Program-made: the position numbers and the translations under genes
The notes under the pieces: generated by a model
Told to the model about the DNA's origin: nothing
Databases searched by the model: none
Seen by the model: only the letters and a program-made list of their open reading frames with translations
Virus record (IMG/VR): IMGVR_UViG_2648501802_000002
DNA from: a virus
Taxonomy: Duplodnaviria > Heunggongvirae > Uroviricota > Caudoviricetes
Length of the DNA stretch: 64,000 nt
Direction: 5' to 3' (one strand)
Shown: one piece after another, positions 36,050 to 50,550 of the stretch
Numbering within the stretch: the stretch's first letter is position 1
Layout: every line of letters begins with the position of its first letter

Positions 36050-36739
36050 TCATAAATCTGATAGCCACTTACTATCTATGGACTCAATCTCCGTCAGCGG
36101 AATTGATGGGAAAAAATATCCCTGAGCGCCCCATAGCCCTATTCCTTTTGATAACTTATGACAATCAATGTTTTCGACGCCTTCAGCGATGATATTCGGA
36201 CATAACTTTTTTAAATTGCTAATAATGACATCAAAATGAGGCTTAATCATATGCTCTTGAAAAAATGACTTATCAAGTTTTATTGCATGGTATTTATTTT
36301 TAATTAATGCTTTCATGGTGGCGTTACCACTTCCAAAATCATCAAGCCAAACATAGTCTGTCAAAGTCAGGAGAAAGGGTATAACGTAATCCTCATCGCT
36401 TAAATCAGGGTAGTTTTCTGATATCTCAAGAACTATAAATTTATTGTTTTTAATTAACTCTTGAGTTTGTTTATTACTGTATATATATATACATGTATCA
36501 TAATCTACATTAATAGAACATAGTATATTATGGCGTTCAAAAAAACACTTGTATTTCATTATTGTGTTAAGTTGTGATTTAAGTAAATTAATCTTCATCT
36601 TATTGGTAAACATACCCAATACTCTTTGAGTAGGAAGAGCGACACCATCTTTGGAGCGAAATCTGCTTAACACTTCTACTGCAATCAACTTGTTCGTGCT
36701 CGTAGAAATGATTGGTTCTGCAATGTAGATAACTTCCAT
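36050..36739 (-). CDS. EAL-domain protein (c-di-GMP phosphodiesterase-like)
   Basis: 229-aa ORF with EVLSRF, DDFGSG, KLDKSF and AQGYFF motifs; AT-rich. Confidence 0.6.
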   Translation of the reverse strand: MEVIYIAEPIISTSTNKLIAVEVLSRFRSKDGVALPTQRVLGMFTNKMKINLLKSQLNTIMKYKCFFERHNILCSINVDYDTCIYIYSNKQTQELIKNNKFIVLEISENYPDLSDEDYVIPFLLTLTDYVWLDDFGSGNATMKALIKNKYHAIKLDKSFFQEHMIKPHFDVIISNLKKLCPNIIAEGVENIDCHKLSKGIGLWGAQGYFFPSIPLTEIESIDSKWLSDL

Positions 36740-36975
36740 ATCCCCACCCTCAAGTTTTAAATTGCTTGATTTTGCTCAGATAACGAGCCCCCTATATTTA
36801 CAAGAGTTACACTCTACTTTTGTAGATTAAATGTCAATTTATTTGTTTGTGATAATATTGAAAAATATCAATTAAAACAATCAAAAAATGTGACATAAAT
36901 CAATAATTTTATTTTTACACAACTTCTTGATTTCTGAGCCTAGCTATCTCTATTCTTATTCAAAGCCTCTTTAGA

Positions 36976-37710
36976 ATGGTGGTGGCCATGTCAGCAGTTT
37001 GTTACTTCATACTCATAAAGAAACCTATAAGCTTTCAATTTCTTAAGGATTTCTTAATATTAAATTATGGTGATGTGTTGTTGCTTAAGCATTCTGAGCA
37101 TGAATGCTTAAAAATCTATTCAGACAAATATATAGAATTCGAACTCAATGATAATACCGTAAGAAACTATTTATCATGCAACAACAACCATGGAAACCAA
37201 TCGCTGGATAAGTGTCCGCATTTGCTAAAAAAGTCTTTTGCCTATCCTGATTTATTAATCAGGATGATCGATAATATAAGCGATCAAAATCATATCCATT
37301 CTGATTTTAGGGAGGCAGTAACTTTTTCATTACTCTCAATTTTTAATGATGTTGATAACTTTAGAGCATTTCTTACGTCTGGTATGCCCACTTTCTCAGG
37401 GAAAGTGCGCAGCATATTTCTTTCAGATGTATCTAAACACTGGAAACTAAGAGACCTAACCGATTATCTCTACATGAGTGAAAGCTTAATAAAGAAAAAA
37501 CTATTATTGGAAAACACCTCCTTCAGTAAGTTATTACTTGATACACGGATGGCTTTTGCTATTAAATTACTAAAGCAAAATCATCCAGTCAAACAAGTAT
37601 CAGAAAGCTGTGGCTTTAGTAGTACATCGTACTTTGTGTGCCTGTTCAGGCAATATTATAATTGCACGCCACGTGAATATGCAAAACATCAATTATTATC
37701 TGGAAAATAA
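36976..37710 (+). CDS. AraC-family transcriptional regulator
   Basis: 244-aa ORF with C-terminal AraC HTH; AT-rich, divergent from the EAL gene. Confidence 0.6.
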   Translation: MVVAMSAVCYFILIKKPISFQFLKDFLILNYGDVLLLKHSEHECLKIYSDKYIEFELNDNTVRNYLSCNNNHGNQSLDKCPHLLKKSFAYPDLLIRMIDNISDQNHIHSDFREAVTFSLLSIFNDVDNFRAFLTSGMPTFSGKVRSIFLSDVSKHWKLRDLTDYLYMSESLIKKKLLLENTSFSKLLLDTRMAFAIKLLKQNHPVKQVSESCGFSSTSYFVCLFRQYYNCTPREYAKHQLLSGK

Positions 37711-37748
37711 GATGCATTTATCTCCCAGATAATATTGTAATATTAAAC

Positions 37749-37997
37749 TCAGTCAGCATTTAGTAGCAGAGCATTATCTATGATGATCTGCTCCCATTCT
37801 TCGAATGCCCGGTCACGGACGCCCTGGGGAACACTGTTTGTTTTGAAATCAACGACTGTCCGCCATTTCCCGTCCGGACGGTACATGCGCAGAGCTTTAC
37901 TTCCCCCTTCCCTACGCACCTCAACGTTATGCTTGTCAGCAAACTCTTGTAATGCTCGTAGCGTCCCATGCTTTACTGTGTAGTATCGCTTTTTCAA
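37749..37997 (-). CDS. small protein, last gene of the DarB-like operon (Lxc-like position)
   Basis: 82-aa ORF, 4-nt overlap with the upstream gene. Confidence 0.3.
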   Translation of the reverse strand: MKKRYYTVKHGTLRALQEFADKHNVEVRREGGSKALRMYRPDGKWRTVVDFKTNSVPQGVRDRAFEEWEQIIIDNALLLNAD

Positions 37998-38434
37998 GTT
38001 TTCTCTCCAGCCTGTGCCAAGGCTTCAACTTCCAAATCGTAAGACTCAAACTCATAGTCCTGGTCGTCAACTTCTTCAGGCACTGGCAGTAAATGCCAGG
38101 CTGAGTATATCTGACCATTATCAAAACGCTCCTGGCTGTAGAGCGTCGCAGCTATGAGCGTCAGCGCCGGGCGGTCATAACGGTAAATTTTGCGAACGTC
38201 ACGGTCAACGAGACGACCGAAATTACCATAACCGCGCTCCAGTAATAATTTTTTAATTTCCGGCCAGTATGGGCCATAGCTGCGGTACAGGCGGGGATTT
38301 TTCAGTAATCGCCCGCGTAGCCCTGACAGGAAGAAATCAACGTATTCGTCTTCTGTCTTTCCTAACAACGCTGTACGGAGTACCGCCTCAAGATATGTTT
38401 TATTCGGTTTTATTGTATCAGATAGTGTGGCCAT
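37994..38434 (-). CDS. hypothetical protein downstream of DarB-like gene (Ulx-like position)
   Basis: 146-aa ORF. Confidence 0.3.
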   Translation of the reverse strand: MATLSDTIKPNKTYLEAVLRTALLGKTEDEYVDFFLSGLRGRLLKNPRLYRSYGPYWPEIKKLLLERGYGNFGRLVDRDVRKIYRYDRPALTLIAATLYSQERFDNGQIYSAWHLLPVPEEVDDQDYEFESYDLEVEALAQAGEKT

Positions 38435-38467
38435 ATTATGCGACGCCCGGCGAACCGGGCGCTCCTG

Positions 38468-41400
38468 TTATGCGTATTGTTGGATGACGGCCAGAACGTC
38501 CGCCACGTTGTGTTTTGTCTCGATAATCCACCAGTTACCCGGGAAATCGCTGTTCTTCGCCTTCGCTGGCAGCCAGCGAGCGCCGAATTTCGCCTTGATT
38601 GCGTCTTTCGCACGGAAAAGAACGCCTTTCATGCCTGAGGCTTCCTGAAGCCCAAATACCTCGCCAGCGGCGAATTTTGGTGCGTACATCATCTTCAGGT
38701 CGGCGGTGGATACGCGATAATTCAGACCTAGAGACTGAGCTATGCTGGTGGCATCACCCTGTATTGATGATAACTCTTCTTGTTTCTCGTTTCTGGCGGC
38801 AATCTCTTCCTCCGTGATGTTGCCAAGGGCCAGGTTTATCCGATCAGCGTCGGCCTGTTTCTCTTCATCGGTGCGCCCGGCAAGAACCGTGTTAATTCTC
38901 TGCAATATCTCCACATGATTCTTGCGCATGCTGAGCAATTCCGGCGTAACCTCGTTAAGATCCACCAGCCCAAGGATGGCAAGGTCGGAAAACATTGATA
39001 CCAGGTTGTAGGTCATGCGATAGCTGAGTTGACCATAGGCTGATGGCAACTTCACCGCATCCATTTGATAGGCATCCATAAATTTAGAGCCGTCGTTTAC
39101 GACATCCGCTATTGCAGGTGTGATTTTCCCTGTGGTGGCGGCCTCCCTGATTGCTGTTACCCACGATTGAGTCAGCGCGGCGACTGCATGATTCAGATTG
39201 GCTTCCCGTTCTGCTGCGATGCGCGCGCTTGCTGCGTCCATTGCCTGCTTGATCTCGGCTTTATTGCTGTAAATGCCAATGGTGCCAAACTGTGCTGTGG
39301 TGATCTCATAATCTGACGCCCGGAACTCATTGGTACCGAAAATGGCATTGGTGACTTCAAGTTCAGAATCCCCGTTACGAGTAGCCCCCTGGCTTGTTTT
39401 TTCCGGCATTCTGGCGATCGCATCCGCTATTTTCTCCTGAATTGCTTCAGGGGATAGCGTATCTCCGTATGACGCGATTACATCGCCATAATTGGAGCCA
39501 AACAATTCAACCAGGAATGTTTCTGCCGAACGGATCTGGCGGTTATTCCCTTCCGACATCATACCAAGCACCCATTTTGCAATTGACGACTTCAGCGCGA
39601 CGTCACGGCGATCCGGGTAAACCGCATGCTTCAGTGGGTCCGTATAGGTACCAACAAAATCAATGCTATAGCCTGACTCTGTAGTCTGAACGCCGTATGA
39701 GTCAGTGATTTTGATCATGCCGCGCTGCTGGAAACGGTAGAAATCGTCACAGGAAATGATGTCGTTAATCCCGGCGATGGAGACGCCGCCACTGATTTTC
39801 TGCATAACAGCATCTTCATCGGGAGTTACATCAACCTGTTTATCCAGCGTCTTCACATCCCAGTTACCCGATTTGGTACCTTTGAAGGTAAAGATAATCT
39901 CCACGTCTGCGCGCAGGCTGTCGAAGTCCAGCGACTTAATGCGAACGATATCACCGGCACAATCGTAGTATTGGCCTACACGCCATGAGCGATCGCCGAT
40001 AATAAGGAACTCACTCGCATGGTTAACCAGGTCAGGATCAACATCCAGAATGCCTTTATTTATTGCATCCTCCACCAGCGGGCGCAGGCGTTTGATATCC
40101 GTCGCGGCCTTCTGAGTACGGTTCAATAATTTCTCATAGCGGGAGATGGCTTGAGAGATATTAGCCTTGCGCTGAATGGCGCTTTTCAACGACGCGCGAT
40201 ACTGTGCTAACAACGTACGGTCTGTGTGATGGACGCTACCCCAGCGGGCTTTCCAGTCTGCGTTATCAGCTGCTTTGGCCATTACCGCCTGTTTGAATTT
40301 GGCGACGTCGGCGGTGGTCTTTTCAAGTTCCGCTTTGCTTCGCTCTAATTCAGCGGTAAGCACCTCCACATCCTCACCAGCTGCGTGCTGCGCCTTGATG
40401 TAGTTCTGAAGGTCGATAGTAGCCTGTTCTTTCTGGCGAGCGCGTTGCGCGGCTTTCGCCTTATCCATTTGAACCTGCATCATTGCCAGACGTTCGCCAT
40501 CATCCTTAGCGGTATACATCTGCATTTCGATCATATCGTTGGCGTCGGCGTTCTCCATTTCTGACTTATCTGAACGGAGGATATCGGAGATCCAACCTGC
40601 TTTACGCTTCAGCGTCTTCAGTCGGTATTCATCGAAAGAACCCTTGCCGCAGTAGTAGTGAACGCGAACGCTTGCACGGTTGGAACCAACTCGGGCACCG
40701 CGACCGTTACGCTGTGCGATACTGGCTGGTGTCCATGGCAACGTCAGATGATGGATGTCAGTCGTTCCTCGATGCAGGTTGATACCCACCTCTGCCTTTT
40801 TGTTGCAGATGATGATCGGAGTCCGGCCCTCCTGGAAGTCGGCTGCAATCTTTTCCAGACCGCCCAACGACATTTCATTTTGCTGCGCGATATAGGCGTC
40901 ATACAGAGCTATTTGCTCGTTGTATTTCGCTATCTGTGCATCTGTTGGTTCATCCGGTAACTCTTTCGGCGGTTTAACCGCTTTCAGTTTCTTACCGGTT
41001 TTACCTGCCTCGGCAACCGTCTGAGCATTCAGGATCCCCACCTTTGAAGGTTCAAGGTTAAGAGCATTGCAGATAATGCGCTTGAGCTTCTGGTGTTGCG
41101 TTTTTTTCATCGGTGAAGATGATTTGCTTACCTTCTGGGAAAAACTCCTTCAGCGTGGCAATCAGCTTCGCGTATTTGGGCGTAACGGGGTGAGTTACGG
41201 TCTGTTCGTCAATGCCAAACTTGGCCAGGCGCTTATTCACTTCCTGCTCAAATGCTTCCGGTACCTGCAACTGAATAAACTCGCCCTTATCTATCAGGGA
41301 GTATTGCGATTGCTGCGTGATTGAATCATCACTGTCGTCGTCTTCGCTGGTGGCTTGTTTGGGCAAACTGTCCGCCAGCTGCTGCACCGCATCGGCGTAC

Positions 41401-43287
41401 TCCGGCAGGAAACGATAGGTGATCCGGCGATAGTACAGGTCCATGTCAGTACATACGCGGTCCATATCCCTGATTATTGAGAAGATCGGACGGGCTTTCT
41501 CGTGCTCAATCACGCCGTCTTCATTGACCGAGGTCATTACGCCATTGTTGGCTTTGGCCGCCGCTTCCGCCTGCTGACGCAATTCTTCATACGCCGCCAG
41601 TTGTTCTTCAGTAAGTGGTGCATCCTGCTGGTGTTCGTCCAGCTCCGGGATCTCCACGGTATCCTTAACGTCTTCCGCCGTTTTAAGCGTTACCCAGCGA
41701 TGGAATATACCGCGCAGCGCATCAACCCGACAATTTCGCTATAGGACCGCGACCAGGATTACCAAAGCGGTCAATCTCTGCCTGCAAACGGGATACCAGA
41801 GAAAGGCGCTGCTGTTCGATTTGTTCAGCACTATGCCCGGCGGCCTTCATATCCTGATATTCAATTAACATCCGGCCAATCATCGCCCCGCGATACAAGC
41901 GTTCACGGTATTTTTCAGGCTGGCTGTTAATCCAGTCCACCAGCTGCACCATATCGTCGCTGATTGATGTGGTGTACTTATCGCGGACATTTGCCATCTG
42001 GGTAAATGTCATGCCGAGACGGCCTTCTGTTGTAGTCAGGTTACGCTGAAGAGCCTCCCAGCTATCCGCGCCATAACTGGCAGCATCGATCTTAAGTTCC
42101 TTCCCGGCATCAGCTTCAATCCAGCGACCACCAGCATATTTTTGCCATACGCCATTAATCAGGCGCATTTCCCCTTCACCAACAACGTCTGCGGTCGGTG
42201 ACGGTTCAGCCATATCGAGCAAAGACCAGTCGATACGGCTTTCGAAACGATGAATCAGCTTCGCTTTAAGAGCCTGGTTATCAATCTGACCGTCGGCACG
42301 AACCTCAATACGCCCCTGGAAGCCCTTTTCCTGGGTGCCATGAACAAACCGGCGGCCATCCTTTTCAAACCACTTGCCAGAAATAAACGTTGGCCAAAGC
42401 ACATTTGCCGATTCAAGAGTGCTTTCATCCACCAGGGGGATTTTCTCAGCCATCTCTGCCGGATGTTTGCGCATCAGCACCACATCAACGACTGTACTGG
42501 TCCCGTTTGCGTCAAAAGTACCGGTAGGCAAGCGGTGAGCGCCAAGAAATTCAGCTTTACGGGATAAGCGCAGGCGTAACCGCTTCATGTTTGAACCTGA
42601 AACAATGGACGGCGGCACAATCACGCACATGAATCCGCCTGGCTTTATCTTGTCCAGCATGCGGAGCATGAAGTAAGAACCCATGTCCGTTTCTTCTGCG
42701 TAAGGCTTATCGATGTTGCGTGTGTTATCACGACCGCCGAACGGAACGTTACCCACAACATGGTCGAATGAATCGTTAGGCGTGCTTATAGCCAGCTGTT
42801 CGAACGGGGAAATCTGTACGCTGTCTTCCGGGTGTAACAACTGGTTTATACGACCGGAAACACTGCTGATCTCAGTCGCGGTCATCACCGTACCAACCGG
42901 TTTTGTCTCATTAAAAACGCCGGTTCCCGCCGATGGTTCCAGAGTGTTACCTACGTCCGCGCCGTAGAGCTTCATGATCTCCCAGACACCTTCAGCGATC
43001 GGCTTTGGTGTGTAATATTCGGAGACGGACCCGCCAATGCCGCCTTCACCGGTGTACCCAGCCAGGATCTGGCGCTGTTCATCTGTCAGTGTCGCGCCGT
43101 CCACCAGCGAATTAAGCAAATCTATCGCCTTCTGATTCGCCTCCCGGCGCAGTCGGTCATAGCTTTTGCCTTCCACCTTTTCCACGCCGTATTTAATCGG
43201 CGCTCGGTGAGATGTTATTGCCCTAATGTATTTCAATATTTCGCTGACACTTGAACAGCAAAACACCCCCATAAATAGCTTGTTCAT
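38468..43287 (-). pseudogene. DarB-like N6-adenine methyltransferase + helicase-C fusion gene, in three ORFs
   Basis: ORF 41722..43287 has methyltransferase motifs (EPSAGTGVF, GNVPFG); ORFs 41058..41657 and 38468..41110 carry helicase C-domain motifs (KQIIFTDE; AQRNGRGAR); junctions at an A7 tract (41101-41107) and a 1-nt shift near 41722-41738. Confidence 0.55.
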
Positions 43288-43353: not shown

Positions 43354-45084
<1,731 letters not shown>

Positions 45085-46359
45085 ACGGCAAACATTCCCA
45101 ATTCACAGAGTCCGACCTAAACCACATGAAGCGGCTTAGGAATTACAGACTCTCCAAGGGCTAACACTGCCAGCCCGGCAGCTTTTATATTACGGGCCGC
45201 GTTAATATCACGATCATGCTCTGCGCCACATTCCGGGCAGTGCCATTTACGAATATTAAGAGGCATTTTTTGCATGGTGAAGCCGCAACTGCTGCAACGT
45301 TTGGAAGAAGGGAAATACTGGTCGATAGCGACAATGCTACGTCCACCCCATTCTCCTTTGTACTGGAGTTGGCGTACAAGTTCGCTCCAGCCTGCGTCAG
45401 CTATTGCTTTAGACAGCTTCGGGTTACGGATCATGTTTTTCACTTTAAGGGATTCGACGCAAACAACTTGGTTTTCGTTAATCAGTTTGCGGGACAACTT
45501 ATGCAGGTTATCCATCCGACAATCGACTATTCTCGCGTGGAGGCGGGCAACCTTTAAACGTGCTTTGGCGCGGTTCTTTGAGCCTTTTTGTTTCTTGCTC
45601 AATCTGCGCTGTAACACTGCTAATCGCTTCGCGTATTTAGCGTTGTGTCGAGGATTGCCAGTTTTAAAACCGGTATCGGTGACGAACAAATCTTTTAAAC
45701 CAATATCAATGCCGACCGTGGAAACGGTGATCGGCAGTGATACAGGCTCAAACTCGCAGAGACAGGATACAAAATATCGTCCGGCAGCATCCCTGGTGAT
45801 AGTGACAGTGGATGGAGCAGACGGCAACGGACGGCTCCAGCGAACATCTAACGGCTCTTTGCTCTTTGCCATGTACAGCTTGCCGTCACGGTATTTAAAT
45901 GCGCTGGCAGTTAGTTCTGCGGCCTGTTTATGCCGCTTGCTCTTAAAAACTGGGTATGCAGCACGCCCGGCGAAAAAGTTAGCAAAAGCCGTTTGTTGGT
46001 GGCGCAGAGACTGCTGGAGGGGGACGCAGGAAACGTCATTCAGCCAAGCGAATTCTGGTTCTTTTTTCAGTGCCGTTAATTTGGCGCTGGCTTGTGCATA
46101 GCCGACCCTCTCATGGCGTGCGTAGTACGCATCGGTGCGCCAGCGAAGGAGGCTGTTATAGACAAAACGCACACACCCAAAAGTCCGGGCTAATAGCTCG
46201 GTTTGTTCGGGAGTTGGATAGAATCGATATTTATAGGCACGCTTCATGTTCTATATAATACATTGAAACTAATGAGTATATAAATGAATACACGGACGAA
46301 AATGTTATCAAAGCCAATATACCAACAGACATTAGGTAAGGTAGCTGGAGGGCAATATA
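45085..46359 (-). mobile_element. tnpB-only IS200/IS605-type element between portal and protease genes (ends not defined)
   Basis: TnpB ORF fills the intergenic space; no tnpA ORF adjacent. Confidence 0.5.
45117..46247 (-). CDS. tnpB: IS200/IS605-family TnpB (RNA-guided endonuclease)
   Basis: 376-aa ORF starting MKRAYKYRFYPTPEQ, with C-terminal zinc finger CSSCG...CPECG. Confidence 0.85.
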   Translation of the reverse strand: MKRAYKYRFYPTPEQTELLARTFGCVRFVYNSLLRWRTDAYYARHERVGYAQASAKLTALKKEPEFAWLNDVSCVPLQQSLRHQQTAFANFFAGRAAYPVFKSKRHKQAAELTASAFKYRDGKLYMAKSKEPLDVRWSRPLPSAPSTVTITRDAAGRYFVSCLCEFEPVSLPITVSTVGIDIGLKDLFVTDTGFKTGNPRHNAKYAKRLAVLQRRLSKKQKGSKNRAKARLKVARLHARIVDCRMDNLHKLSRKLINENQVVCVESLKVKNMIRNPKLSKAIADAGWSELVRQLQYKGEWGGRSIVAIDQYFPSSKRCSSCGFTMQKMPLNIRKWHCPECGAEHDRDINAARNIKAAGLAVLALGESVIPKPLHVV

Positions 46360-47379
46360 ATGACTGATGTTTTGAAAACGGTCACTGACCGCTTTTGTCT
46401 CTATAGCAATGCTCGAAAAGGTCGCCAGAACGGGCGACAGTATGTATTAAGCGCGGTTAAGACCATGCTTGAAAGCAAGGAAACTCAGGAAGGTTTACGC
46501 CTTGGAGAGCTTTTCGGCTATTACGGTCACGGTCGCCGACAGCTGACCGGCAAACTGGAAGTACCAGAAACCAGCGTAATCATGGTGGAAGGTCGCCCGG
46601 TCGTAATCGACAATGTTCCAGCGTGCCGCACAGTGGCTATATCCGTTGACGACAACGGCATCGTTACCCATACACAGGAAATTCTTAACACAGAGCCGGG
46701 TAAAATTGTCGCCGCGATGATCGAAAGCCGAGCTGGTGGCTGGAGCTGGGCCACTGGCGGGCGTGAGTCCGGGAAAATCGCTGTAACCACCAGCTTCCAT
46801 GGTGTGGATTATGTGACAACGCCGAACTATATCAGTCTGGATCATCCTGCCAGCGCCGGAATGTTTGAAAGCGCGGATTCTAAATCTTTACTGGCAGAGT
46901 CCCTGGCGGCGCATGGGTACTCCGACGAGTCAGTGCAGGCCGTTATATCCCATTACGGCAAAATGGCTGAACTGGAAATGATGGTGGAGGCGACAGAGCG
47001 TACGGCAGAACTGGAAACTGCACTACTCGAAAGCCAGGGCCGCCACCTCGAAGCAATGGCCAAGATCGCAGATGCTGAAGCGCGAATCGCTTTGCTGGAG
47101 GAAACAGCGGGTATCCGCGACGATGTGCTGGCAGCAATGCAAGACGAACTGGATAACCTCCCGATCTTCGTCTCCGCCGCCCAAAAAGACGCATTCCGCC
47201 TCAAAGAACCTGGTGATGCAAAAATCGTTGCCACACTTTTCGAATCTCTGATCAAAGTTGGCGCACGCAACTTGCCTGTCACCAAGAAAATTAAGGAGGT
47301 TCCGCAAGCGGCTAACGTCCAGGCACCGCGTGAGACAAGCATCATCACGTTTAATAATTCAATCAATCCGTTTAAATAA
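46360..47379 (+). CDS. head processing protease (Pro-like)
   Basis: 339-aa ORF after the portal gene; coiled-coil C-terminus. Confidence 0.5.
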   Translation: MTDVLKTVTDRFCLYSNARKGRQNGRQYVLSAVKTMLESKETQEGLRLGELFGYYGHGRRQLTGKLEVPETSVIMVEGRPVVIDNVPACRTVAISVDDNGIVTHTQEILNTEPGKIVAAMIESRAGGWSWATGGRESGKIAVTTSFHGVDYVTTPNYISLDHPASAGMFESADSKSLLAESLAAHGYSDESVQAVISHYGKMAELEMMVEATERTAELETALLESQGRHLEAMAKIADAEARIALLEETAGIRDDVLAAMQDELDNLPIFVSAAQKDAFRLKEPGDAKIVATLFESLIKVGARNLPVTKKIKEVPQAANVQAPRETSIITFNNSINPFK

Positions 47380-48880: not shown

Positions 48881-49077
48881 ATGTGTAAAAAACGACTGAA
48901 AGAAAAGCGGTGGTCCAAACGCCAACAAAAGCACGAACTCGCTAAAAAACGCCAAAGTTGGCAATGGCACGCGCTTTTCACGAAAAGAACACCCCGAGAT
49001 ATTGCTTTCGCTGGTGGGAAAACATTCCTGACCCACCTGAAGGCGCAATACATCAGGTTTTAAGCAGAGGAAAGACT

Positions 49078-49755
49078 ATGAATAACATGACAACGAAAGA
49101 GCTTTTGACGGCACTTCCAAAATACAAAAGCCATAAAACAGTTCGTGCCTCAAAAATCAAAGATATCGAAATTATCGCCCTAATGGATGTGGTCCTTCTT
49201 TGCAACATCGAAGTCGTTGAGCCAGAAGGGGTAAAAGTCCATGTTGATAAAATGTTTTTGCAAAAACACCGACCAGAAATTGGCGGATATCTGGTCGCTT
49301 ACGAGGACGGATCTCTGTCCTATTCACCAGAAAAAACATTTGAAGAAGGCTTTAGTCGGACTAACGACTTCTTCGAAAATGGGGTATCGCTCAGCATTGA
49401 AGGTCACAACGGGGTGACATTCATTACAGCCAAGGACGTAACTATTTCTGCTGGCGGTATCGCTACTCTACAAGAAGAAATCGACCTTGAAGCAGCCGAC
49501 TTTTCTGACGCGCTGATGTGGCTGAAGGATGGCAAGAAAGTTGCTCGACGCGGGTGGAACGGCGAAAACCAATTCTGCTGGCTGGTTCCTGAAGGACAGT
49601 ACCCGGCACGAATGGAAGCCATTAAGGGATATTTCCCCGGCGACCTCGTTCCGTATGGTGCTTATTTCGCCTTAAAAAATGCACAAGGTGTAGTTGTTCC
49701 GTGGGTTCCTTCTGTAGGCGACTTACTGGCATGTGACTGGTTTGTAGTGGAGTGA
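49078..49755 (+). CDS. hypothetical protein (DUF2829-like C-terminus)
   Basis: ATG at 49078 has AGAGGA RBS (track ORF starts 48958); MWLKDGKKVARRGWNG motif. Confidence 0.35.
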   Translation: MNNMTTKELLTALPKYKSHKTVRASKIKDIEIIALMDVVLLCNIEVVEPEGVKVHVDKMFLQKHRPEIGGYLVAYEDGSLSYSPEKTFEEGFSRTNDFFENGVSLSIEGHNGVTFITAKDVTISAGGIATLQEEIDLEAADFSDALMWLKDGKKVARRGWNGENQFCWLVPEGQYPARMEAIKGYFPGDLVPYGAYFALKNAQGVVVPWVPSVGDLLACDWFVVE

Positions 49756-49761
49756 TTTAAC

Positions 49762-50550
49762 GTGGAAAATACTAAAGCAATTCAATACCGCCTGCGTAAT
49801 GGCCAGAGTGTCGAAGTGACCATCAATAATGATGGTGTACCTGGCGAAAAGGTTTCTATCTCTGATCTGGCTATCGAAAAAACCATCATGTGCCACCTTG
49901 GCTTTACTGAAGAAGTGAGCAAAAAGCATGGTGTAGCTATCTGGCGAACAATGGATACTGGCATGCGCAGATTCATTACCGCTCGTACCCCAGGTATGAC
50001 CATGATGGACCTCATGCAGATTGCGCCGCTGTTTGAGTGTGAACCTTTGGATGTATTCAGCAATCCAGCTATCTGCCAGCAGTTATATGGTGAGATGAAA
50101 CTCGCGGTTACCCCCATTGTGCTGCATGAAGGATCGCTTGCTGGCGTATGGAAAGTAGAGCGAATTTCAAGCTATATGCCCTTCCACATCCATGTCAACG
50201 GCGTAATCGCAGGTGAAAATCAACCTGTTTCAGTTACAAAGTCAGACCTCAAGCGCGCAATTCTTGAAGCAAGTTGTCGAGTTATCGGCCTGGGCAAACA
50301 GTCTTATGTTTTCTTCCCGGCTGGCCCTGAAGGCCCGGCAGAAATTCTGATTATGGATGCCGATCTGCTCTGGCAAATACAGTTTCTGATTGGCAAAAGC
50401 ATCATCCGCGCTGAAGAACTCGATCAGTACATTACCTGCACGATGACGGATGAAGTCAAAAGTGTGGCTATAGCCAATGCCCGGAACCTATGTCGTGCTG
50501 CATTAACAGAACTGCAAGAAAACACCACGGAAGAAGTGGAAAGCGATTAA
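49762..50550 (+). CDS. hypothetical protein
   Basis: 262-aa ORF. Confidence 0.3.
   Translation: MENTKAIQYRLRNGQSVEVTINNDGVPGEKVSISDLAIEKTIMCHLGFTEEVSKKHGVAIWRTMDTGMRRFITARTPGMTMMDLMQIAPLFECEPLDVFSNPAICQQLYGEMKLAVTPIVLHEGSLAGVWKVERISSYMPFHIHVNGVIAGENQPVSVTKSDLKRAILEASCRVIGLGKQSYVFFPAGPEGPAEILIMDADLLWQIQFLIGKSIIRAEELDQYITCTMTDEVKSVAIANARNLCRAALTELQENTTEEVESD

What the first reader, a model, noticed from the sequence alone, without database searches (positions are those of the whole stretch)
45085..46359. tnpB-only IS200/IS605 element inserted between portal and protease genes
A 376-aa TnpB with the N-terminus typical of IS609-type insQ and a C-terminal zinc finger fills the portal-protease intergenic region on the opposite strand, with no tnpA partner. 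Such elements produce a guide RNA from the tnpB 3' end, which here abuts the portal gene 3' end, and may affect late-gene expression.
Basis: partly seen in the sequence, partly recalled or inferred. Interest (0 to 1): 0.5.

Follow-up and report, generated by a model that had tools for sequence, protein, structure and literature searches.

The report
Immobilised TnpB element in phage P1
A 1.3-kb tnpB-only insertion sequence sits exactly in front of the start codon of the head-processing gene of a P1-like phage-plasmid; it keeps an intact RNA-guided nuclease and guide RNA aimed at P1 relatives that lack the insertion, and seems to have lost the end it needs to move.

Summary
The window is a P1-like phage-plasmid. 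A 1295-bp IS200/IS605-family, tnpB-only element (45065-46359, minus strand) is inserted precisely in the prt/pro gene overlap, which is uninterrupted in phage P1.

TnpB (376 aa) keeps the RuvC triad D181/E265/D347 and the zinc ribbon. A 3' omega-RNA scaffold is supported by covariation across 39 relatives. No tnpA homologue is in the window.

There was never an intergenic gap: Prt now ends inside the element's right end (ND* becomes IDNCPP*), and the left end supplies the ribosome-binding site of pro.

Beyond the finding:
- The left-end hairpin is decayed, yet tnpB shows purifying selection within the P1 lineage.
- The guide matches the uninterrupted junction (TCAT + 20 nt), which 448 of 490 E. 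coli records with this junction carry.
- About 80% of family insertion sites abut the ATG of an outward-facing gene. There the element supplies a GGAGG and early stop codons.

It is an ordinary member of a known kind in mechanism. The site habit and a possible homing or exclusion role are worth testing.

The parts
45065..46359 (-). Whole tnpB-only IS200/IS605-family element (1295 bp), inserted without target duplication
   Evidence: Break in collinearity with phage P1 NC_005856. The 3-nt ATA ambiguity is resolved by family alignments: the left end follows TCAT and the right end finishes ...GTCAA.
45117..46247 (-). tnpB CDS, 376 aa plus stop; RuvC D181/E265/D347; Zn ribbon C318, C321, C337, C340
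   Evidence: Intact in 9 of 9 P1-lineage copies examined. dN/dS about 0.1 against relatives.
46248..46359 (-). Left end (LE), 112 nt; the subterminal hairpin is decayed. It holds a promoter-like site for tnpB (TTTATA-18-TATTAT, 46284-46255) and an outward promoter-like site on the + strand (46230-46259).
   Evidence: DNA fold -1.2 kcal/mol against -7.3 and -10 in relatives. Not detected by an LE profile built from 20 relatives. Promoter-like sites are consensus matches only.
46347..46352 (+). GGAGGG inside the LE, 7 nt upstream of the pro ATG: replacement Shine-Dalgarno for pro
   Evidence: Read from the sequence. An equivalent GGAG/GAGG/AGGA is present in 25 of 32 family LEs. It is more accessible in this copy than in relatives (P unpaired 0.56 against 0.11-0.44).
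46360..46363 (-). TCAT target/TAM flanking the LE; on the + strand it is ATGA, the pro start codon plus one base
   Evidence: TCAT in 25 of 25 reconstructed family sites (the boundary-refinement step looked for CAT within 3 nt, so this count is partly by construction), with T preferred at -5. First seen.
45065..45116 (-). Right end (RE) after the tnpB stop. It has a conserved terminal hairpin and ends in TCAA. On the + strand it encodes the new Prt tail IDNCPP*.
   Evidence: (fold -6.6 kcal/mol).
45065..45189 (-). Omega-RNA scaffold (at least this 125 nt), overlapping the tnpB 3' end
   Evidence: RNAalifold gives 29 pairs, 16 with compensatory changes. 97% of cells are paired against 36-49% with slid partners, and 0 of 500 shuffles reach the observed values. 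Only sub-threshold Rfam hits were found (RAGATH-18 here; sot0042 and HgcC in relatives).
45045..45064 (-). Predicted guide portion of the omega-RNA (TATCGTTTCCCTCTTTAAAG), antisense to the 3' end of prt and the native pro Shine-Dalgarno
   Evidence: Its position immediately 3' of the RE follows the established TnpB model. The uninterrupted P1 junction reads TCAT plus this 20-mer. The only near-match in the window is the RE junction itself, where TCAA stands in place of TCAT.
43363..45084 (+). prt (portal), 573 aa; the C-terminus is altered from ...GNDND* to ...GNDIDNCPP* by reading into the RE
46360..47379 (+). pro (head processing), 339 aa; now separated from prt by the element
   Evidence: The same Pro protein accession appears in insert-bearing and empty plasmids.

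Best explanation
This is an old single insertion of an IS1341-type (tnpB-only) IS200/IS605 element into the prt/pro overlap of a P1-like phage-plasmid. It inserted 3' of its TCAT target, which on the other strand is the ATGA at the start of pro.

The phage tolerates it for two reasons. On the gene strand, the right end gives prt a stop codon after 6 extra codons. The left end ends in GGAGGG-N7, which replaces the pro ribosome-binding site.

The left-end hairpin that a TnpA transposase would need has since decayed, so the copy is most likely immobile. The nuclease module is kept: an intact TnpB plus an omega-RNA whose guide is the 20 nt beyond the right end. TnpB-omega-RNA should therefore cut any P1-type genome with the uninterrupted junction (TCAT + TATCGTTTCCCTCTTTAAAG). 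The insertion protects the resident copy, because TCAA replaces TCAT next to the guide match.

Shown here: anatomy, boundaries, conserved catalytic residues, RNA covariation, the target match, population frequency and the selection signal. Inferred: expression, cleavage activity, immobility, and any consequence for competition between P1 relatives.
For: - Precise insertion relative to P1.
- TnpB domains and the D181/E265/D347 triad aligned to ISDra2 D191/E278/D361.
- Family LE and RE boundaries, TCAT target and TCAA right-end terminus.
- Omega-RNA covariation.
- LE hairpin lost (-1.2 kcal/mol, no profile hit) while the RE hairpin is kept.
- The listed rows of the 37 E. coli records at 95% identity or more all cover the query with its P1 flanks, so they are at this same site, and no such copy was seen elsewhere among 5,426 genomes. 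25 PLSDB plasmids carry it at 99% or more.
- 448 of 490 junction-bearing E. coli records are uninterrupted, so they are potential targets.
- 9 of 9 copies keep the 376-aa ORF. Polymorphisms are 13 nonsynonymous to 12 synonymous, against about 76% nonsynonymous expected; binomial p = 0.008.
- Self-site protection by a 1-nt TAM mismatch.
Against: - No expression or activity data exist. The tnpB promoter is only a consensus match.
- The within-lineage selection test rests on 25 polymorphic sites from 9 copies.
- A decayed LE hairpin is inferred from folding and profile search, not from a transposition assay.
- The only 'phage' record carrying the insert is an in-silico prophage, so virion production by insert-bearing plasmids is not shown.
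- Five terminator-like hairpins lie on the + strand inside the element. If they act, pro could be poorly expressed from the late promoter.
Confidence: 0.8

Rival explanations
1. It is an ordinary, still-mobile non-autonomous IS copy. A TnpA encoded elsewhere in the host moves it in trans, and TnpB serves only the canonical role of restoring the element after excision.
For: This is the default behaviour of the family (Meers et al., bioRxiv 10.1101/2023.03.14.532601). The RE hairpin, the TCAA terminus and the TCAT flank are intact. Relatives are multi-copy in Serratia and Klebsiella genomes, so the family is mobile somewhere. A twin plasmid carries an IS200C tnpA only 1.2 kb away.
Against: The LE hairpin is lost in this copy, and the LE is identical in all 9 copies examined. 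No copy at 95% identity or more was seen away from this site among 5,426 E. coli genomes. The IS200C ends do not resemble this element's ends, and IS200C is absent from the window.
Confidence: 0.12
2. It is a neutral relic. The element is a dead passenger, the tnpB ORF is intact only because too little time has passed, and it has no present activity.
For: The LE is decayed. Within-lineage dN/dS of about 0.35 is much higher than the family's long-term value of about 0.1. Only about 8% of P1-like plasmids carry it.
Against: The nonsynonymous deficit is significant (p = 0.008). There are no stops or frameshifts in 9 of 9 copies, although tnpB has 2.2% variable sites. All omega-RNA stems are kept, and the one RE stem substitution seen (45078) keeps pairing as G-U.
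Confidence: 0.15
3. It is a domesticated transcriptional regulator of the TldR type. A TnpB-like protein would use its guide to bind DNA and repress phage or host genes without cutting.
For: Phage-borne TnpB relatives with this role exist (TldR; PMC13418256, listed). The guide region overlaps the prt 3' end and the former pro ribosome-binding site.
Against: All three RuvC catalytic residues and the zinc ribbon are intact and the protein is full length. The window holds no TAM-flanked match to the guide that it could bind.
Confidence: 0.03

Closest known systems
ISDra2 TnpB / omega-RNA (Deinococcus radiodurans; PDB 8exa, 8bf8, 8h1j)
   Same: Same domain order, alignable end to end (E 7e-77). 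The catalytic D-E-D and the CxxC...CxxC zinc ribbon are conserved. The omega-RNA is encoded at the tnpB 3' end and RE, with the guide taken from the flank.
   Different: ISDra2 carries tnpA and uses TTGAT as its target (my own knowledge). This element has no tnpA and sits next to TCAT. No activity data exist for this protein.
Gifsy-1 gipA element (Salmonella prophage; GipA recognised as TnpB-like in PMC3627910)
   Same: 84% protein identity. It is also a tnpB-only element of about 1.3 kb, also antisense inside a phage morphogenesis operon (between the gpZ and gpU homologues), and its LE also abuts the ATG of the downstream gene.
   Different: The Gifsy-1 copy keeps a very stable LE hairpin (gene-strand fold -51.8 kcal/mol). 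It is in a lambdoid prophage, not a P1-type plasmid, and was reported as a virulence factor, which was not examined here.
ISEc42-labelled element of phylogroup B2 E. coli (ybhB/bioA locus, e.g. Nissle 1917, CFT073)
   Same: About 81% DNA and 86% protein identity. It is tnpB-only and single copy at a fixed site, and its LE abuts the ybhB ATG and supplies GGAGG. The P1 copy is labelled ISEc42 in record ON470615.2.
   Different: It is chromosomal, with the LE hairpin intact. I could not consult ISfinder, so the name is taken from record annotation only.
Geobacillus IS200/IS605 elements (ISGst; Meers et al., 10.1101/2023.03.14.532601)
   Same: They give the functional model used here: TAM equals the transposon target site, the guide equals the RE flank, and the nuclease cuts the empty site so that recombination restores the element.
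   Different: In those elements TnpA-driven excision creates the empty site in the same cell. Here excision looks disabled, so empty sites would come from other P1-type genomes.
Phage homing endonuclease genes (e.g. T4 seg and I-Tev genes)
   Same: A nuclease gene sits between essential phage genes and has its recognition site in relatives that lack the gene. Flanking haplotypes are shared between insert-bearing and empty genomes.
   Different: The protein family is unrelated and recognition is by protein, not RNA. The analogy is an inference and was not tested.

Membership tests
IS200/IS605 family, tnpB-only (IS1341-type) element | TnpB protein with an N-terminal HTH, a RuvC-like OrfB_IS605 domain and a zinc ribbon | tested here: met
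   Pfam PF12323, PF01385 and PF07282 all above cut-off. NCBIfam guided_TnpB scores 358 bits (cut-off 100). NF038281 IS200_TnpB scores 394 bits, below its strict 425 cut-off.
IS200/IS605 family, tnpB-only (IS1341-type) element | RuvC catalytic triad present | tested here: met
   D181, E265 and D347 align with ISDra2 D191, E278 and D361.
IS200/IS605 family, tnpB-only (IS1341-type) element | No tnpA inside the element | tested here: met
   Only 112 nt lie between the LE boundary and the tnpB ATG. Relatives have 105-175 nt. No TnpA homologue in the window.
IS200/IS605 family, tnpB-only (IS1341-type) element | Insertion 3' of a fixed short target, with no terminal inverted repeats and no target duplication | tested here: met
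   Exact junctions against P1 with no duplication. TCAT in 25 of 25 reconstructed family sites, a count partly set by the CAT-seeking boundary refinement.
IS200/IS605 family, tnpB-only (IS1341-type) element | Subterminal hairpins at both ends (TnpA binding sites) | tested here: inconclusive
   The RE hairpin is present (-6.6 kcal/mol). The LE hairpin is absent in this copy (-1.2 kcal/mol; no LE profile hit) but present in relatives. I read this as decay after insertion, not as non-membership.
IS200/IS605 family, tnpB-only (IS1341-type) element | Structured omega-RNA overlapping the tnpB 3' end and ending at the RE | tested here: met
   29 pairs, 16 with compensatory changes; 97% of cells paired against at most 49% in slid controls. 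No Rfam family reaches its gathering score.
IS200/IS605 family, tnpB-only (IS1341-type) element | RNA-guided, TAM-dependent DNA cleavage | not testable with these tools
   Needs an interference or in vitro cleavage assay.
IS200/IS605 family, tnpB-only (IS1341-type) element | Mobility by a Y1 TnpA supplied in trans | not testable with these tools
   Indirect evidence is negative: one site only among 5,426 E. coli genomes and a decayed LE.
TldR-type nuclease-dead TnpB-like regulators | Loss of RuvC catalytic residues or truncation of the RuvC/zinc-ribbon region | tested here: not met
   Triad and zinc ribbon intact, protein full length.
Homing (drive) nuclease acting between P1-type genomes (considered, not claimed) | The cognate target is present in insert-free relatives and absent from the carrier | tested here: met
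   P1 reads TCAT plus the 20-nt guide match. 448 of 490 E. coli records have an uninterrupted junction. The carrier has only TCAA plus the guide match.
Homing (drive) nuclease acting between P1-type genomes (considered, not claimed) | The insert is found on unrelated flanking haplotypes (spread by conversion) | tested here: inconclusive
   Insert-bearing flanks are not monophyletic, and the insert occurs on plasmids typed IncY and IncHI1B by MOB-suite. Ordinary recombination among P1 relatives explains this equally well.

The most novel reading that the evidence does not exclude
There are two linked readings.

(1) This enterobacterial TnpB family is specialised for docking at translation start sites. 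It inserts, or survives, exactly between the Shine-Dalgarno and the ATG of a gene on the opposite strand. It brings its own GGAGG at the left end and early stop codons at the right end, so it can sit harmlessly inside tightly packed operons, including phage morphogenesis operons.

(2) In P1 the copy has lost mobility but is kept because TnpB-omega-RNA cuts the uninterrupted prt/pro junction of incoming or co-resident P1 relatives. It would then act as an RNA-guided homing or exclusion nuclease between phage-plasmids.
Probability: 0.3. Interest if true: 0.7.

Novelty: new member of a known kind. Interest (0 to 1): 0.45.

Why it matters
As a TnpB element it is ordinary, and public records already annotate it. 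Three things would matter if confirmed.

- It is a natural case of a TnpB and omega-RNA kept under selection after the transposon end has decayed. That bears on how transposon nucleases become host or phage tools.
- The nuclease is pre-programmed against the allele carried by about 90% of related phage-plasmids. This gives a direct test of RNA-guided homing or exclusion between phages.
- The family habit of sitting exactly at start codons while replacing the ribosome-binding site and the upstream stop would explain how 1.3-kb elements persist inside essential operons. I found no description of it in the papers searched.

Tried and rejected
- **Rfam:** no family reaches its gathering score. RAGATH-18 scores 21.8 bits against 44.9 in the window; relatives give weak sot0042 and HgcC hits. 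I use these only as a hint that the RNA lies where TnpB-associated RNAs lie.
- **Repeats:** no terminal inverted or direct repeats of note.
- **tnpA:** none in the window. The IS200C tnpA next to pro in twin plasmid NZ_CP033882.1 is absent from the window, and its ends do not resemble this element's ends, so I rejected it as the partner.
- **Literature:** searches for ISEc42, gipA + TnpB, TnpB + TCAT/TTCAT, start codon/Shine-Dalgarno + TnpB, and TnpB + prophage + homing found nothing on this element, its target or its site habit. Two searches failed on syntax.
- **Virion evidence:** I had hoped phage record vB_EcoM-673R5 showed that insert-bearing genomes make virions. It is an in-silico prophage.
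- **Vertical descent or homing:** the flank phylogeny is polyphyletic but cannot separate the two.
- **TldR-like regulator:** rejected because the catalytic residues are intact.
- **Scripts:** two scripts that relied on exact-match anchors failed and were replaced by blastn.

Full report
**What the window is.** The region matches phage P1 and P1-like plasmids at 98-99% identity. The gene order is darB, prt, pro, lyz, ssb. A 2.9-kb query across the finding matched one phage record in full (vB_EcoM-673R5). It matched 18 P1/P7-type records in two pieces covering 56%, that is, everything except the insert.

**The observation.** An ORF at 45117-46247 on the minus strand encodes 376 aa.
- It has the three Pfam domains of TnpB (HTH_OrfB_IS605, OrfB_IS605, Cas12f1-like_TNB).
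- It passes NCBIfam guided_TnpB at 358 bits against a cut-off of 100.
- It aligns over its whole length with the solved ISDra2 TnpB (E 7e-77). D181, E265 and D347 stand at the positions of the catalytic D191, E278 and D361. C318, C321, C337 and C340 form the zinc ribbon.

**Boundaries.** In P1, prt and pro overlap by 8 nt (...GGAAACGATAATGACTGA).
- The window is collinear with P1 up to 45064 and again from 46360, with a 3-nt ATA ambiguity.
- I aligned the ends of 20 relatives from other genomes. The left end always follows TCAT. The right end always finishes ...GGGAGCAGTCAA, after which the sequences diverge.
- This fixes the element at 45065-46359 (1295 bp), with no target duplication and no terminal inverted repeats.
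In fact the last 20 nt of prt lie inside the right end. Prt now ends ...GNDIDNCPP* instead of ...GNDND*.
- On the gene strand the left end finishes GGAGGGCAATATA directly before the pro ATG. The native Shine-Dalgarno (GAGGG) is now 1.3 kb upstream, and an element-borne one stands 7 nt from the start codon.

**No tnpA.**
- Only 112 nt separate the left end from the tnpB ATG. Relatives have 105-175 nt.
- tblastn with an IS200C TnpA found nothing in the window.
- A near-identical plasmid (NZ_CP033882.1) carries an IS200C copy just after pro. That insertion is absent from the window, and its ends do not resemble this element's ends.

**The RNA.** The last 125 nt of the element from 39 relatives fold into a common structure of 29 pairs, 16 with compensatory changes.
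- On the named structure, 97% of cells pair, against 36-49% when partners are slid.
- No shuffle in 500 reaches any of the five measures.
- The window copy keeps every stem.
- Rfam has no family for it at gathering score. The window gives a weak RAGATH-18 hit. Relatives give weak hits to sot0042 and HgcC, which are RNAs described at tnpB 3' ends (PMC4615843).

By the established TnpB model, the guide is the flank beyond the right end, TATCGTTTCCCTCTTTAAAG (45064-45045, minus strand). The uninterrupted P1 junction reads TCAT followed by exactly these 20 nt. In the window the only near-match is the right-end junction itself, where TCAA replaces TCAT. This is the usual way such elements avoid cutting themselves.

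**Population picture.**
- In 5,426 complete E. coli genomes, 490 records carry the prt-pro junction and 448 have it uninterrupted.
- 37 records carry this element at 95% identity or more. All listed rows include the P1 flanks, so they are at the same site.
- PLSDB holds 25 copies at 99% or more, from E. coli, E. albertii and E. fergusonii.
- No such copy was seen at another locus.
- About 81%-identical relatives are single copy in 343 E. coli chromosomes between ybhB and bioA (Nissle, CFT073). Others are on IncI-type plasmids and in Gifsy-1, where the gene is gipA.

**Signs of immobilisation with a retained nuclease.**
- The left end of relatives forms a GC-rich hairpin (-7.3 and -10 kcal/mol as DNA). 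The window's left end gives -1.2 kcal/mol and is not found by a profile built from 20 left ends. Its 5' arm is still recognisably homologous, and the differences are mostly G/C to A/T.
- The right-end hairpin, which is also the last omega-RNA stem, is kept (-6.6 kcal/mol).
- Eight further P1-lineage copies all keep the 376-aa ORF. They have 0 changes in the left end, 2 in the right end (one keeps the stem as G-U, one is in the loop), and 25 in tnpB: 12 synonymous and 13 nonsynonymous.
- With about 76% of random changes expected to be nonsynonymous, this deficit has p = 0.008.
- Against other family members dN/dS is about 0.1.

The sample is small. It points to continued constraint on TnpB after the left end decayed.

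**A family habit found on the way.** I examined 32 unique insertion sites with a definable left end.
- In 26, the TCAT is the ATG(A) of an outward-facing ORF of at least 80 aa. Only 30% of control ATGA sites in the same flanks meet that test (p = 4e-9).
- The four annotated cases agree exactly: pro, ybhB, trbC and the gpU homologue.
- Rejoining the two flanks reconstructs textbook initiation regions, for example AAAGGAGGGCTC-ATG and CCAGGAGTAACCC-ATG.
- 25 of 32 left ends carry GGAG, GAGG or AGGA within 13 nt of the boundary.
- On the gene strand the right end starts TTGAC. This stops an incoming reading frame after 1 codon in one frame (8 cases, including the Gifsy-1 gpZ homologue) and after 6 codons in another (P1 prt).
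- Prophage contigs add further sites beside the ATG of other long ORFs in prophage regions. Two of these ORFs (L124, L149) look like tail protein L from their N-terminal sequence, which is my reading and was not checked.
- In relatives the GGAGG is paired inside the left-end hairpin (probability unpaired 0.11-0.44). In the P1 copy, where the partner arm has decayed, it is freer (0.56). This fits selection for pro translation as a cause of the decay. That link is an inference.
- I cannot tell whether the start-codon habit reflects targeting or survival of harmless insertions. I found no description of it in the literature searched.

**Homing or vertical descent.** I compared 780 nt of flanks from 9 insert-bearing and 8 empty junctions.
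- The insert-bearing ones are not a clade. One differs from an empty plasmid at 2 sites but from another insert-bearing plasmid at 12. No site separates the two classes.
- Within about 100 bp of the junction the insert-bearing copies are nearly invariant.
- The insert occurs on plasmids that MOB-suite types as IncY and as IncHI1B.

This fits conversion-type spread. It fits ordinary recombination among P1 relatives equally well, so it decides nothing. Two empty plasmids carry a T-to-G change at guide position 2, next to the TAM. This may or may not be an escape allele.

**Effect on late genes.** The effect on late genes is shown only in part.
- Shown: the Prt tail is changed, prt/pro coupling is lost and the pro ribosome-binding site is replaced.
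- Not shown: whether late transcription crosses 1.3 kb of antisense tnpB. The consensus scan lists five terminator-like hairpins on the + strand inside the element and an outward promoter-like site (TTTATA-18-TATAAT, 46230-46259). These are pattern matches only.
- The one phage record with the insert is an in-silico prophage, so virion production is untested.

**Verdict.** The finding is correct and its interpretation is supported, with the coordinate and anatomy corrections above. In kind it is a new member of a well-understood family. The points worth experiments are the retained nuclease aimed at insert-free P1 relatives and the family's start-codon docking.

Noticed in passing
Related loci L005-L083, L101-L157, L003, L004, L084; in the window 46347-46363 and 45065-45084: Members of this TnpB family sit exactly between the Shine-Dalgarno and the ATG of a gene on the opposite strand (26 of 32 unique sites; 4 of 4 annotated cases). 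They bring a GGAGG at the left end and early stop codons at the right end. I found no description of this in the papers searched.
   Followed up: partly
window 41725/41726 (darB, about 36520-43287, minus strand): Compared with the intact 6768-nt darB of plasmid NZ_CP033882.1, the window lacks 1949 nt (gene positions 1563-3511). The reading frame is broken: 521 aa, then out-of-frame remnants of 199 and 880 aa. The defence-against-restriction gene darB looks inactivated here.
   Followed up: partly
window about 47386 (just after the pro stop); L093 7780-8530: The otherwise near-identical plasmid NZ_CP033882.1 has a roughly 0.7-kb IS200C (tnpA-only) insertion right after pro. It is absent from the window. 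Two different IS200/IS605-family elements have therefore landed within 1.2 kb of each other in this lineage.
   Followed up: yes
L097 and L098 (empty prt-pro junctions of NZ_CP130449.1 and NZ_CP060935.1), equivalent to window 45063: Two insert-free P1-like plasmids carry GAGA instead of GATA just before the pro ATG. This is a mismatch at position 2 of the predicted TnpB target, next to the TAM. It changes Prt D to E and could be an escape allele.
   Followed up: no
window 48958-49755 (+) and 49762-50550 (+): Downstream of ssb, where the twin plasmid encodes an anti-phage dGTPase, the window has a 265-aa ORF with a Tad2-like (Thoeris anti-defence 2) domain (Pfam E 2e-22) and a 262-aa ORF with no Pfam match. 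This looks like a variable defence/anti-defence slot.
   Followed up: partly
L084 (Gifsy-1, NC_010392.1 19746-20876): gipA, published as a Peyer's-patch-specific virulence factor, is an 84%-identical TnpB of this family. It lies antisense between the gpZ and gpU homologues, and its left end abuts the gpU ATG. The gpZ homologue reads one codon into the right end before a TGA.
   Followed up: partly
window 45167-45181, 45559-45584, 45919-45936, 46185-46201 (+ strand): Five terminator-like hairpins lie on the strand antisense to tnpB inside the element. The whole scanned region has 9, against 2.0 +/- 1.6 in shuffles. If they act, they would make the insertion polar on pro.
   Followed up: no
L017 2854-2956: A TPP riboswitch (69 bits, above gathering score) lies about 170 nt beyond the right end of a Serratia proteamaculans copy of the element.
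   Followed up: no
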